Part shown: in pieces, positions 39,455-43,253 of the stretch | Position numbering within the stretch: the first letter of the stretch is position 1 | Layout: every line of letters begins with the position of its first letter | IMG/VR virus record: IMGVR_UViG_2778261009_000005 | Coordinates: 1 to 43,253 of that record | Source: a virus | Lineage: Duplodnaviria; Heunggongvirae; Uroviricota; Caudoviricetes | Reading direction: 5' to 3' (one strand) | DNA length: 43,253 nucleotides | Made by a program: the position numbers and the translations under genes | The notes under the pieces: model-generated | The model's database searches: none | Told to the model about the DNA's origin: nothing | What the model saw: only the letters and a program-made list of their open reading frames with translations

Positions 39455-39720
39455 TTCACTTATCCACATTATCCACTGGGTAGATCCAATAATTAGGTCC
39501 ATACAGATCCCAATTAGATCCATATAGATCCCTGATCGTTGCAGGCCGCGCCACGTCTGGCTTAGAAGTGTATCGCGATGTGTGCTGGAGGGAAAACGAT
39601 GTGTGCTGGAGGGATAAAAATGTGTGCTGACGGGTTGCTAATGTGTGCTGGCGGGATATAGGATGTGTGCTGACGGGAAAGCCTGGGTAGTTATCACCAC
39701 TTATAAAAGCTATCCACATA
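39455..39720. promoter_or_regulatory. Plasmid origin oriR with incC iterons: DnaA boxes, five GATC heptamers, five 19-bp RepA iterons
   Basis: TTATCCACA/TTATCCACT at 39460-39477; AGATCC repeats 39481-39540; five direct copies of GATGTGTGCTGGAGGGAAA-like iterons 39578-39680. Confidence 0.85.
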
Positions 39721-39736
39721 ATTCGGAAAAAGTAAT

Positions 39737-40597
39737 ATGAATCAATCTTTTATCTCCGATATTCTTTACGCAGACATTGAAAGTAAGGCAAAAGAACTAA
39801 CAGTTAATTCAAACAACACTGTGCAGCCTGTAGCGTTGATGCGCTTGGGGGTATTCGTGCCGAAGCCATCAAAGAGCAAAGGAGAAAGTAAAGAGATTGA
39901 TGCTACCAAAGCGTTTTCCCAGCTGGAGATAGCTAAAGCCGAGGGTTACGATGATATTAAAATCACCGGTCCTCGACTCGATATGGATACTGATTTCAAA
40001 ACGTGGATCGGTGTCATCTACGCGTTCAGCAAATACGGCTTGTCCTCAAACACCATCCAGTTATCGTTTCAGGAATTCGCTAAAGCCTGTGGTTTCCCCT
40101 CAAAGCGTTTGGATGCGAAACTGCGTTTAACCATTCATGAATCACTTGGACGCTTGCGTAACAAGGGTATCGCTTTTAAGCGCGGAAAAGATGCTAAAGG
40201 CGGCTATCAGACTGGTCTACTGAAGGTCGGGCGTTTTGATGCTGACCTTGATCTGATAGAGCTGGAGGCTGATTCGAAGCTGTGGGAGCTGTTCCAGCTT
40301 GATTATCGCGTTCTGTTGCAACACCACGCCTTGCGTGCCCTTCCGAAGAAAGAAGCTGCACAAGCCATTTACACTTTCATCGAAAGCCTTCCGCAGAACC
40401 CGTTGCCGCTATCGTTCGCGCGAATCCGTGAGCGCCTGGCTTTGCAGTCAGCTGTTGGCGAGCAAAACCGTATCATTAAGAAAGCGATAGAACAGCTTAA
40501 AACAATCGGCTATCTCGACTGTTCAATTGAGAAGAAAGGCCGGGAAAGTTTTGTAATCGTCCATTCTCGCAATCCAAAGCTGAAACTCCCCGAATAA
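39737..40597 (+). CDS. repA: RepA replication initiator of the plasmid prophage replicon
   Basis: 286-aa ORF MNQSFISDILYADIESKAKELTVNSNN... flanked by iteron arrays. Confidence 0.93.
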   Translation: MNQSFISDILYADIESKAKELTVNSNNTVQPVALMRLGVFVPKPSKSKGESKEIDATKAFSQLEIAKAEGYDDIKITGPRLDMDTDFKTWIGVIYAFSKYGLSSNTIQLSFQEFAKACGFPSKRLDAKLRLTIHESLGRLRNKGIAFKRGKDAKGGYQTGLLKVGRFDADLDLIELEADSKLWELFQLDYRVLLQHHALRALPKKEAAQAIYTFIESLPQNPLPLSFARIRERLALQSAVGEQNRIIKKAIEQLKTIGYLDCSIEKKGRESFVIVHSRNPKLKLPE

Positions 40598-40885
40598 GTG
40601 TGTGCTGGAGGGCAGCTGCATTCAAAAAATGTGTGCTGCCGGGAAGGCTTGTCCAATTTCCCGTTTTTGATGTGCGCTGGAGGGGGACGCCCCGCAGTTT
40701 GCTCAGACTTTCCCTCCAGCACACATCTGTCCATCCGTTTTTCCCTCCAGTGCACATGTAATTCTCTGTCTTTCCCTCCAGCACACATATTTGATACCAG
40801 CGATCCCTCCACAACACATAATTCAATGCGACTTCCCTCTATCGCACATTCTGGTCCTGCATCATCCCTCCAGCACACATCTAAT
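40596..40885. repeat. incA copy-control locus: nine 19-bp RepA iterons (3 in one orientation, 6 in the other)
   Basis: Repeats of GTGTGCTGGAGGG and its reverse complement CCCTCCAGCACAC at about 40-bp spacing. Confidence 0.8.
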
Positions 40886-40990
40886 AGCCTCATCGCCATT
40901 TCTTTACGTGCAATAATTTACGCACGAATCAAAATAAGTTGCACGTAGCAGAATCAAACGTACAATTCACTCATACGAAATGATAAGGAG

Positions 40991-42202
40991 ATGATGATGA
41001 AACGCGATTACGGCGGTGTCGGCACCATAGCTCTTCGTGCAAGCGCATTACTTAAGGCCATGAGTCAGGATATTGAAGATCAGCGCAAAGAGTTCAATCA
41101 GACCGAGTATTATCAGACGTTCACTCGTAACGCTGTGGCAAAGTTGCCGAAGCTGAGCCGCCGCATTGTGGAGCAGGCCATCAAAGAGATGGAAGATGAT
41201 GGGTACCAGTTCAACAAGAAACAGGTCGGTAACGTTGAACAGTACGCGCTGACCATCCAGAACGTCATTGATATCTATGCCCACCGTAAGATCCCCAAAT
41301 ATCGCGACATTCACAAATCGCCTTACGTTATTTTTGTCGTAAACCTGAAGGGTGGCGTATCCAAAACGGTTTCAACAGTCACGTTGGCGCACGCTCTGCG
41401 TGTGCATCAGGATTTACTGCGTCACGATCTGCGCATTCTGGTAATTGACCTTGACCCTCAGGCATCCAGCACAATGTTCCTCGACCATACTCACAGTATT
41501 GGTTCCATCCTGGAAACCGCCGCGCAGGCGATGCTGAACGACCTGGACGCGGAGACGCTACGCAAAGAGGTGATTCGTCCGACCATCGTTCCTGGCGTAG
41601 ACGTGATTCCAGCCTCTATCGACGATGGCTTTGTTGCCAGCCAATGGAAAGAGCTGGTTGAAGAGCATCTTCCCGGACAAAATCAGTACGAAATCCTTCG
41701 ACGCAATATCATTGATCGTGTTGCGGATGATTATGACTTTATCTTTATTGATACCGGTCCACACCTGGATCCGTTCCTGCTCAACGGTCTGGCGGCCAGC
41801 GATTTGCTGCTTACCCCTACCCCACCAGCCCAGGTTGACTTCCACTCAACACTGAAATATCTCACCCGTCTGCCAGAAATGCTGGAGCAACTGGAGGAGG
41901 AAGGCGTAGAACCGCGTTTGAGCGCCAGCATTGGTTTTATGTCGAAGATGACCGGCAAGCGCGATCACGAGACATCACACAGCCTTGCGCGTGAGGTTTA
42001 CGCCAGCAACATTCTGGACTCTTCTCTGCCTCGTCTGGATGGCTTTGAGCGATGCGGCGAGTCTTTCGACACCGTAATCAGTGCCAACCCGCAATCGTAT
42101 CCAGGCAGTGCAGAGGCGCTGAAGAAGGCACGAACCGAGGCCGAGCGTTTCACTAAGGCTGTGTTTGATCGAATTGAGTTTGTTAGGGGTGAGGCGGCAT
42201 GA
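40991..42202 (+). CDS. parA: ParA partition ATPase (P1 ParA family, divergent from P1)
   Basis: About 400-aa ORF with deviant Walker A NLKGGVSKT; three consecutive ATGs at 40991-40999 after AAGGAG, so the exact start is ambiguous. Confidence 0.85.
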   Translation: MMMKRDYGGVGTIALRASALLKAMSQDIEDQRKEFNQTEYYQTFTRNAVAKLPKLSRRIVEQAIKEMEDDGYQFNKKQVGNVEQYALTIQNVIDIYAHRKIPKYRDIHKSPYVIFVVNLKGGVSKTVSTVTLAHALRVHQDLLRHDLRILVIDLDPQASSTMFLDHTHSIGSILETAAQAMLNDLDAETLRKEVIRPTIVPGVDVIPASIDDGFVASQWKELVEEHLPGQNQYEILRRNIIDRVADDYDFIFIDTGPHLDPFLLNGLAASDLLLTPTPPAQVDFHSTLKYLTRLPEMLEQLEEEGVEPRLSASIGFMSKMTGKRDHETSHSLAREVYASNILDSSLPRLDGFERCGESFDTVISANPQSYPGSAEALKKARTEAERFTKAVFDRIEFVRGEAA

Positions 42203-43164
42203 AAAAAATAGTTTCCCGTGGACGAGTGCTGGGCAAGAATAGCTCCGAGTTTGCTCGCATGCTTGAAGGCAGTGAAGGCACCAAAACCTTTACCCTAAAA
42301 TCTGGCCGCCAGGCTAAATTCTTGCTTACCGTCGTGCTGAGTGGTGAGATTGAGTCGCGCACGTTCGTTGACCCGGCAGTTAACGGCCGCGATCAGTCTC
42401 TGCTCACCCCTGAGTCGGTAAGCGATATTTCCCGCACCATTAAATTGCAACAGTTCTTCCCGGCTATCGGTCGTATGGTTGGGGAGCGCATTGAGGTATT
42501 GGACGGATCGCGTCGCCGTGCTGCGTGTATCTTCAATGAAACGAAATTTGAGATTCTGGTGACGAAAGATGAGATCAGCCTGGCGGATGCCCGCCAGCTG
42601 GCCATTGATATCCAGACAGCCCGCGAACACACTCTGCGCGAGCTGGGTAAACGCTTCGAGGTTATGTACGGTAAGAATATGACCAAAGAAGAGATCGCCC
42701 GAGCTGAGAACATCTCAAAGGCTAAAGTGACGCGAGCTTTCCAGGCTGCCGCGGTGCCGGATGAGATGATTGCTGTCTTCCCCGTAGCCAGCGATCTCGC
42801 CCTTCCAGATTACCAGTTACTGCTCCAGATCTCCGAGGATGCCAACGCTAAAAGCGTGCCTATTGAAGAGCTGGTTGATACGGTGCGCGAACGAATTGCA
42901 GAGACTGAGGGCGCGAAAGAGGATAAAGCGAAGATACTGGCTATCTTCAAAGCAGAAAGCAAAAGCCTGAAGCCCGCGCCGGTTAAATCTGTGGTGGTTG
43001 AGAAGCTGCGAGACTTCTCTGACCGTCGCCAATATGCCCGAAAGAAGTCCGATCCGAAAAAACGGGTTGTCGCCTACGAGTTCTCCAGACTCCCGTCTGA
43101 AGTGCAAACTGAAATTGACGAAGCAATAAAAAAAATCATTGGGAAAATGTCTGCTGGGGAATAA
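42199..43164 (+). CDS. parB: ParB centromere-binding protein (P1 ParB family, divergent)
   Basis: 321-aa ORF overlapping the parA stop; LDGSRRR motif. Confidence 0.8.
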   Translation: MKKIVSRGRVLGKNSSEFARMLEGSEGTKTFTLKSGRQAKFLLTVVLSGEIESRTFVDPAVNGRDQSLLTPESVSDISRTIKLQQFFPAIGRMVGERIEVLDGSRRRAACIFNETKFEILVTKDEISLADARQLAIDIQTAREHTLRELGKRFEVMYGKNMTKEEIARAENISKAKVTRAFQAAAVPDEMIAVFPVASDLALPDYQLLLQISEDANAKSVPIEELVDTVRERIAETEGAKEDKAKILAIFKAESKSLKPAPVKSVVVEKLRDFSDRRQYARKKSDPKKRVVAYEFSRLPSEVQTEIDEAIKKIIGKMSAGE

Positions 43165-43253
43165 TCCCGCTGGTGGGAGGCGGCTTTAGCTCCCTCCCCT
43201 GTCTAAAATGTCCCGCGTCTATTTCATGTATAAATATATGATATATATAGATA

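What the first reader, a model, noticed from the sequence alone, without database searches (positions are those of the whole stretch)
39455..43253. Mosaic maintenance region: P1-type oriR-repA-incA with a divergent ParA/ParB module
RepA, the five incC and nine incA iterons, DnaA boxes and GATC heptamers look like P1 as I remember it, whereas ParA and ParB are clearly homologous to but substantially different from P1 ParA/ParB over most of their length. This implies a distinct partition specificity that could allow coexistence with P1-type plasmids. The partition site downstream of parB is cut by the window end.
Basis: partly seen in the sequence, partly recalled or inferred. Interest (0 to 1): 0.4.

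Follow-up and report, generated by a model that had tools for sequence, protein, structure and literature searches.

The report
Phage P7 plasmid replication-partition region
This stretch is the already well-studied plasmid-maintenance region of phage P7 (P1-type replication origin and RepA next to P7's own ParA/ParB partition genes), carried by a common P1/P7-like E. coli phage-plasmid, so it is ordinary.

Summary
Window 39439-43253 is collinear with the oriR-repA-incA-parA-parB-parS region of phage P7 (98.5% DNA identity) and 99-99.9% identical to many E. coli IncY phage-plasmids. RepA is 100% identical to RepA of both P1 and P7. All 14 iterons (5 incC, 9 incA), the tandem DnaA boxes and the five GATC sites lie where P1 has them. 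P1-level identity (96.5%) stops at 40884, 3 bp after the last incA iteron. From there the DNA is P7. ParA is 403/403 identical to P7 ParA and 57.5% to P1 ParA. ParB is 320/321 identical to P7 ParB and 41.8% to P1 ParB. The window holds only the left arm of parS (boxB1, boxA1, IHF site). The essential right arm lies beyond the end and is intact and P7-type in the nearest relatives. A separate partition specificity for P7 par is established in the literature. The suggestion that this would let the element coexist with P1 is not supported, because the replicon and its incompatibility iterons are P1/IncY. The combination is common: 225 PLSDB plasmids, and P7-type par in 212 of 5426 complete E. coli genomes.

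The parts
39439..39680 (+). oriR, the plasmid replication origin (P1/P7 type)
   Evidence: It corresponds position by position to the rep_origin annotated in P1 and P7. It differs at 4 of 242 nt from each.
39460..39477 (+). Two tandem DnaA boxes, TTATCCACA TTATCCACT, at the left edge of oriR
   Evidence: The pattern scan finds the first box and the second is read directly from the sequence. The position matches the DnaA protein_bind feature of P1. A further DnaA-box-like CTATCCACA at 39710-39718, between the iterons and repA, was read.
39483..39537 (+). Cluster of five GATC (Dam methylation) sites, four of them as AGATCC(A/C) heptamers
   Evidence: They match 'Dam methylation sites 1-5' in the P1 and P7 annotation.
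39577..39680 (+). incC: five direct 19-bp RepA iterons (copies 14-10). In P1 the repA promoter lies within them.
   Evidence: Iteron scan. One nt differs from P1 and one from P7 over the five iterons. PrepA is annotated inside them in P1.
39737..40597 (+). repA, the replication initiator (286 aa)
   Evidence: 100% amino-acid identity to P1 and P7 RepA. The 7 nt differences from P1 and 14 from P7 are all synonymous. Pfam Rep3_N above its cutoff and Rep3_C just below.
40597..40881 (.). incA: nine 19-bp RepA iterons (copies 9-7 forward, 6-1 reverse), the copy-number control and incompatibility locus
   Evidence: Iteron scan. Same positions as the P1/P7 annotation. Per-iteron comparison.
40885..40990 (+). 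P7-type par promoter/operator region. It begins at the P1/P7 divergence point and contains the inverted repeat TACGTGCAA (40905-40913) / TTGCACGTA (40939-40947).
   Evidence: P1 identity ends at 40884. The spacer is 109 bp here and in P7 against 273 bp in P1, and does not align with P1. Its role as operator is inferred from the P7 literature and was not tested. The simple sigma-70 scan found no consensus promoter.
40991..42202 (+). parA, a type Ia partition ATPase with an N-terminal HTH (403 aa), P7 allele
   Evidence: 403/403 identical to P7 ParA and 57.5% to P1 ParA. PDB 3ez9/3ezf, a 403-aa chain, scores 886.6 bits over residues 1-403. Pfam HTH_54 and AAA_31. Walker A KGGVSKT read.
42199..43164 (+). 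parB, the centromere-binding protein (321 aa), P7 allele; it overlaps the parA stop by 4 nt
   Evidence: 320/321 identical to P7 ParB (N160 here, S in P7) and 41.8% to P1 ParB. Pfam PF08775 ParB at residues 194-314. The P1 ParB structures 2ntz/1zx4 match residues 137-316.
43210..43243 (+). Left arm of parS: boxB1 GTCCCG (43210-43215), boxA1 ATTTCAT (43221-43227) and the IHF site (43231-43243). The right arm is cut off by the window end.
   Evidence: Coordinates were transferred from the P7 annotation. One substitution relative to P7 lies between boxB1 and boxA1.

Best explanation
The region is the plasmid-prophage maintenance cassette of a P7-type member of the P1 phage group (Punavirus, IncY phage-plasmid).

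Replication. This part is inferred from P1 biology because the components are identical. RepA monomers bind the five incC iterons in oriR. Host DnaA binds the flanking DnaA boxes. The GATC-rich AT region must be Dam-methylated for initiation. The nine incA iterons downstream of repA titrate RepA and pair ('handcuff') with the origin, which holds the copy number near one. RepA also represses its own promoter inside incC.

Partition. A two-gene operon encodes ParA and ParB. ParA is a type Ia Walker ATPase whose N-terminal HTH lets the ADP form repress the operon at the upstream inverted repeat. ParB, helped by IHF, assembles on parS just downstream of parB. ParA-ATP on the nucleoid then positions the ParB-parS complexes.

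Specificity. ParA, ParB and the parS boxB sequences are the P7 versions. The system should therefore recognise P7-type and not P1-type centromeres.

Origin of the 'mosaic'. It is the long-known P1/P7 difference. The divergent block runs from 3 bp past the last incA iteron (40885) to the IHF site/boxA2 boundary inside parS, about 8 bp beyond the window end.
For: - Whole-region DNA identity is 98.5% to P7 AF503408, 99.0% to OP279344 and 99.9% to plasmid CP148313.1, which is typed IncY.
- Protein identities: RepA 100% to P1 and P7; ParA 100% to P7 and 57.5% to P1; ParB 99.7% to P7 and 41.8% to P1.
- The iterons, DnaA boxes and GATC sites sit at the positions of the P1/P7 annotation.
- The left breakpoint is at 40884. 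The right breakpoint, from P7 against P1, is at P7 locus 5361, which is boxA2 of parS.
- The 403-aa PDB chains 3ez9/3ezf match over the full length at 886.6 bits.
- Domain content is that of a type Ia ParA (HTH_54 plus AAA_31) and a P1-family ParB (PF08775).
- BoxB1 and boxA1 are identical to P7. The nearest relatives continue with ATTTCAG-CTGAAAT-TTCCCA-GTTTCAC, where boxB2 is TTCCCA against TCGCCA in P1.
- The rest of the window is also P1/P7 phage DNA: ban, dam/dmt, tRNAs and tail genes at 97.5% to P7.
- Literature: iterons set replication incompatibility, boxB is the species discriminator, and A2-A3-B2 form the minimal parS (PMC10999674).
Against: Nothing contradicts the identification. 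There are four limits.
- No function was tested here.
- The essential right arm of parS (A2, A3, B2, A4) is not in the window, so the completeness of the centromere is inferred from relatives.
- The simple sigma-70 scan found no consensus promoter in the region. It also misses the experimentally known PrepA, so it is uninformative.
- The primary P1/P7 specificity papers (Ludtke 1989; Hayes & Austin 1993; Radnedge 1996, 1998) are not held in the library (only PMC1170934 was tried). They are cited from my own knowledge and from reference lists.
Confidence: 0.97

Rival explanations
1. The par module is a new, third specificity type within the P1par family (like pMT1 or pWR100 par), not P7 par.
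For: ParA and ParB are only 57.5% and 41.8% identical to P1. The P1par family is known to contain several specificity types (titles cited in PMC10999674 and PMC7602700).
Against: ParA is 403/403 and ParB 320/321 identical to P7. BoxB1 and boxA1 are identical to P7. The single ParB difference (N160 for S) lies far from the C-terminal domain (Pfam PF08775, residues 194-314), which is the domain that, from my knowledge of the P1 ParB-parS structures, contacts boxB. L003 and L004 have N160 like the window but differ from it at other ParB positions.
Confidence: 0.01
2. The divergent par module lets this element coexist stably with P1-type plasmids.
For: P7 par has a different boxB discriminator (TTCCCA against TCGCCA). 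ParS-mediated (incB) incompatibility with P1 should therefore be absent (the discriminator role of boxB is in PMC10999674).
Against: RepA is identical to P1 RepA and the 14 iterons differ at only 8 of 266 nt. Iterons determine replication incompatibility (PMC10999674). The closest plasmid is typed IncY. From my own knowledge, P1 and P7 are the classical pair of mutually incompatible IncY prophages.
Confidence: 0.04
3. The junction is a recent, one-off recombination or an assembly chimera between a P1 and a P7 genome in this particular sample.
For: Identity to P1 drops abruptly at 40884. Divergence from P7 is patchy: parA has 1 nt difference in 1212 and parB has 21 in 966.
Against: P7 itself has the same breakpoint at the same base (P7 against P1). 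The same rep-plus-par arrangement occurs in 225 PLSDB plasmids and P7-type par in 212 complete E. coli genomes. It is an old, widespread configuration.
Confidence: 0.01

Closest known systems
Phage P7 plasmid maintenance region (oriR-repA-incA-parA-parB-parS; GenBank AF503408, J03308, X17529)
   Same: Gene order, all spacings, RepA and ParA proteins (100%), ParB (320/321), the 14 iterons (262/266 nt), the operator-region inverted repeat, and parS boxB1, boxA1 and the IHF site.
   Different: About 1.5-2% nucleotide substitutions, one ParB residue (N160 for S), and one base between boxB1 and boxA1. Elsewhere in the window the Tn3-family/blaTEM copy sits at a different place than in P7, and a 1.2-kb segment replaces P7 terB.
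Phage P1 plasmid maintenance region (NC_005856 58.9-62.9 kb)
   Same: oriR, the DnaA boxes, the GATC cluster, incC, RepA (100% aa) and incA (96.5% DNA identity up to 40884). The par operon has the same architecture, and so does parS (B-A-IHF-A-A-B-A).
   Different: ParA 57.5% and ParB 41.8% identity. The incA-parA spacer is 109 bp against 273 bp and does not align. ParB is 321 aa against 333 aa. BoxB is GTCCCG/TTCCCA against TCGCCA.
Other P1par-family partition systems (Yersinia pestis pMT1, Shigella pWR100)
   Same: Type Ia ParA with an N-terminal HTH, P1-family ParB, and a boxA/boxB centromere. This rests on the literature (titles cited in PMC7602700 and PMC6519299).
   Different: Not compared by sequence here. 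They belong to different replicons and have their own specificities. The window's proteins are the P7 alleles.

Membership tests
P1/P7 IncY iteron replicon | RepA initiator of the P1 type | tested here: met
   286/286 identical to P1 and P7 RepA.
P1/P7 IncY iteron replicon | Five direct 19-bp iterons in the origin (incC) and nine downstream of repA (incA, 3 forward and 6 reverse) | tested here: met
   14 iterons at positions homologous to P1; 258/266 nt identical to P1.
P1/P7 IncY iteron replicon | Tandem DnaA boxes and five GATC sites in the AT-rich left part of oriR | tested here: met
   TTATCCACATTATCCACT at 39460-39477; GATC at 39483, 39506, 39517, 39527 and 39534; matches the P1/P7 features.
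P1/P7 IncY iteron replicon | Replication incompatibility with P1 (IncY phenotype) | not testable with these tools
   Inferred from the identical RepA and near-identical iterons. The nearest plasmid is typed IncY by MOB-suite.
P7-type par (P1par family, type Ia ParABS) | ParA with an N-terminal HTH domain plus a deviant Walker A ATPase | tested here: met
   Pfam HTH_54 (residues 18-107) and AAA_31 (113-282); KGGVSKT motif; 100% identical to P7 ParA; PDB 3ez9 full-length match.
P7-type par (P1par family, type Ia ParABS) | P1-family ParB with an HTH and a C-terminal dimerisation/boxB-binding domain, P7 allele | tested here: met
   PF08775 at residues 194-314; 320/321 identical to P7 ParB; the P1 ParB structure aligns to residues 137-316.
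P7-type par (P1par family, type Ia ParABS) | parS immediately downstream of parB with the layout boxB1-boxA1-IHF-boxA2-boxA3-boxB2-boxA4 | tested here: inconclusive
   The left arm and IHF site are present at 43210-43243. The right arm lies beyond the window end. It is present in the nearest relatives CP148313.1 and OP279344.1.
P7-type par (P1par family, type Ia ParABS) | P7-specific boxB discriminator bases (TC where P1 has CG at positions 2-3) | tested here: inconclusive
   BoxB1 GTCCCG is identical to P7. [quoted passage not shown]
P7-type par (P1par family, type Ia ParABS) | P7-type autoregulatory operator upstream of parA, dissimilar to that of P1 | tested here: met
   The 109-bp spacer differs from P7 at 3 positions, does not align with P1, and contains a 9-bp perfect inverted repeat. 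Operator function itself was not tested.
P7-type par (P1par family, type Ia ParABS) | Partition specificity: supports P7 parS and not P1 parS, with no par-mediated incompatibility with P1 | not testable with these tools
   Inferred from protein identity with P7 and from published P1/P7 work (cited from memory and from reference lists).

The most novel reading that the evidence does not exclude
The small differences from reference P7 might subtly shift centromere recognition or reflect ongoing allele exchange that creates new partition sub-specificities among P7-type phage-plasmids. These differences are ParB N160 for S, a run of about 20 synonymous changes confined to parB nt 123-606, and one base between boxB1 and boxA1.
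Probability: 0.03. Interest if true: 0.2.

Novelty: already known. Interest (0 to 1): 0.05.

Why it matters
It matters little as a discovery. The P1/P7 pair is the textbook case of homologous partition systems with different species specificity attached to the same replicon. This window is one more copy. It has practical value for annotation. The element should be labelled a P7-type IncY phage-plasmid, and it also carries blaTEM. It should be expected to be replication-incompatible with P1-like plasmids although its centromere type differs. In the searched collections both par types are common: 539 PLSDB records carry P1-type par and 225 carry the P7-type rep-plus-par block.

Tried and rejected
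- I considered that the par genes might be a new specificity type. Identity with P7 rules this out.
- I considered a chimera or one-off recombinant. P7 has the same breakpoint and hundreds of independent plasmids share the arrangement.
- The consensus promoter scan of 39400-43253 returned no sigma-70 sites. This is uninformative, because the known PrepA also escapes it.
- I tried to read several primary papers and none is held in the library: Radnedge 1998 (PMC1170934), Dunham 2009 (PMC2699355), Lobocka 2004 (PMC523184), and Dabrazhynetskaya 2005 and 2009 (PMC1196149, PMC2632008). Their content is therefore cited from memory or through PMC10999674.
- NCBIfam has no model that reaches its cutoff for RepA, ParA or ParB.
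- I did not test whether any genome carries P1-type and P7-type par plasmids together. The search output cannot be intersected.
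Full report
**What is in the sequence**

ORF listing and direct reading show the following, from left to right:
- a terminator-like hairpin after the upfA homologue (39433-39453);
- an origin-like stretch;
- a 286-aa ORF (39737-40597);
- a repeat-rich spacer;
- a 403-aa ORF (40991-42202);
- a 321-aa ORF (42199-43164) that overlaps the previous stop by 4 nt;
- 89 bp of non-coding DNA up to the window end.

A scan with the P1 iteron consensus finds exactly 14 copies. Five direct copies lie at 39577-39680. Nine lie at 40597-40881, three forward and six reverse. 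The rest of the 43-kb window has only one weak match, with 5 mismatches. Tandem DnaA boxes lie at 39460-39477, and five GATC sites fall within 55 bp at 39483-39537.

**What it matches**

Megablast of 39400-43253 against the phage collection gives full-length matches:
- phage P7 (AF503408 / NC_050152), 98.5%;
- a record labelled P1 (OP279344), 99.0%.

Reference P1 (NC_005856, AF234172) matches only query positions 3-1485, at 97.4%.

In PLSDB, 225 plasmids cover at least 80% of the query. The best is CP148313.1 at 99.9%, a 91.7-kb E. coli plasmid typed IncY.

The rest of the window is also P1/P7 phage DNA. Positions 20000-43253 are 97.5% identical to P7 over 95% of their length. This stretch includes head-morphogenesis (hdm), baseplate/tail, ban, tRNA, dam and hrdC genes. 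The window therefore comes from a P1/P7-like (Punavirus) phage-plasmid.

**Protein comparisons**

| Protein | Identity to P7 | Identity to P1 |
|---|---|---|
| RepA | 286/286 | 286/286 |
| ParA | 403/403 | 57.5% |
| ParB | 320/321 (N160 here, S in P7) | 41.8% |

- The repA nucleotide differences are 7 from P1 and 14 from P7. All are synonymous, since the proteins are identical.
- Identity between ParA and P1 ParA is highest around the Walker A region and the C-terminus.
- Identity between ParB and P1 ParB is lowest at the N-terminus and around residues 200-260.
- The PDB search returns the 403-aa ParA chains 3ez9/3ezf at 886.6 bits over residues 1-403. The 398-aa chains 3ez2/3ez6/3ez7 score about 520 bits. 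[quoted passage not shown]
- ParB matches the P1 ParB structures 2ntz/1zx4 over residues 137-316.
- Pfam gives HTH_54 plus AAA_31 for ParA, PF08775 for ParB and Rep3 for RepA.

**Where the 'mosaic' boundaries are**

blastn against P1 shows 96.5% identity that ends at window 40884. That is 3 bp after iteron 1 of incA. P7 compared with P1 breaks at exactly the same base. P1/P7 homology resumes at P7 locus position 5361, next to boxA2 of parS. This corresponds to about window 43261, just beyond the end.

Within the divergent block only the central and C-terminal part of parA still aligns with P1 at the DNA level, at 64.5%. The incA-parA spacer is 109 bp here and in P7, against 273 bp in P1, and does not align with P1. 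It contains a perfect 9-bp inverted repeat, TACGTGCAA/TTGCACGTA, at 40905-40947. This fits the published statement that the P1 and P7 par operons are autoregulated from dissimilar operators (Hayes et al. 1994, listed in PMC9178275). Operator function was not tested here.

**parS**

I transferred the P7 annotation onto the window:
- boxB1 GTCCCG at 43210-43215;
- boxA1 ATTTCAT at 43221-43227;
- the IHF site at 43231-43243.

Boxes A2, A3, B2 and A4 would start at about 43264, so the window cuts parS within the spacer after the IHF site.

In P7, CP148313.1 and OP279344.1 the sequence continues as ATTTCAG-nCTGAAAT-TCCCAC-GnTTTCAC. BoxB2 there is TTCCCA, against TCGCCA in P1.

[quoted passage not shown] The decisive box is therefore not in the window, and its P7 type is inferred from relatives.

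**How it works (inferred from identity with studied components)**

- RepA binds the incC iterons and, with DnaA and Dam methylation of the GATC cluster, initiates replication at oriR.
- The incA iterons titrate RepA and handcuff the origin. They set the copy number and the IncY incompatibility.
- ParA-ADP represses the par operon through its N-terminal HTH.
- ParB and IHF assemble on parS, and ParA-ATP on the nucleoid positions the complexes.

None of these steps was tested here. They follow from 100% or near-100% identity to the experimentally studied proteins and sites.

A distinct partition specificity is correct, and it has been known for decades for P7. The primary papers are Ludtke et al. 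1989, Hayes & Austin 1993 and Radnedge et al. 1996 and 1998. I cite them from my own knowledge. The 1998 title also appears in the reference lists of PMC7205306 and PMC10999674.

The suggestion of coexistence with P1-type plasmids does not follow. The initiator is identical and the iterons are 258/266 nt identical to P1. Iterons determine replication incompatibility (PMC10999674). Only parS-mediated incompatibility would be avoided.

**Prevalence**

- P7-type par occurs in 212 of 5426 complete E. coli genomes, with 205 places on plasmids and 10 on chromosomes.
- The P1-type oriR-repA-incA block is present nearly whole in 167 genomes.
- P1-type par occurs in 539 PLSDB records.
- A published survey already reports P1-like plasmids with 'parAB 99.8% P7 (minimal similarity to P1)' (PMC6906374).

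**Verdict**

The identification as a mosaic is correct only in the sense of the classical P1/P7 difference. The element is a P7-type IncY phage-plasmid maintenance region. It is already known and of low interest.

Noticed in passing
window 101-2261: A Tn3-family transposon fragment. It has a truncated transposase N-terminus (101-508, minus strand; DUF4158 only), a resolvase (477-1070) and a TEM-family beta-lactamase (1253-2113; NCBIfam blaTEM 668 bits, above the 625 cutoff). Positions 125-2261 are 100% identical to the Tn3-annotated segment of P7. Here, however, the fragment abuts the cra/cre region at 2262, a different place than in the P7 record.
   Followed up: partly
window 32562-32648 (- strand): ARAGORN calls an 87-nt tRNA-Ser(tga) in addition to the three tRNA genes that match those annotated in P7 (called Met(cat)/Thr/Asn here, Ile/Thr/Asn in P7). 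The Rfam tRNA model does not reach its gathering score there. The tRNA-Sec model gives 43.1 bits, below its 47-bit threshold (E 2.6e-7). The DNA is shared with P7, where nothing is annotated at that spot.
   Followed up: partly
window 31111-32331: A 1.2-kb segment replaces the 735-bp P7 segment that carries upf69.6, upf69.4 and terB. It encodes a 275-aa SPFH/Band 7 protein (31254-32081, minus strand).
   Followed up: partly
window 40991-43164: Divergence from P7 is very uneven. parA has 1 nt difference in 1212. parB has 21 in 966, of which 19 are synonymous (the other two share the one changed codon, N160) and 20 cluster at parB nt 123-606. This suggests patchwise recombination between P7-type par alleles.
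   Followed up: no
window 39737-40597: RepA is 100% conserved at the protein level among the window, P1 and P7, despite 7-14 nucleotide differences, all synonymous. This points to strong purifying selection on the initiator.
   Followed up: no
E. coli complete genomes: Ten of the 215 places that match the P7-type par region lie on chromosomes rather than plasmids. These could be integrated P1/P7-like elements or mis-assigned replicons.
   Followed up: no
window 3077-4108 (- strand): A 343-aa tyrosine recombinase (Pfam Phage_integrase) lies at the position where related phages annotate cre. It is probably Cre of the P1/P7 lox-cre system, but it was not aligned here.
   Followed up: no
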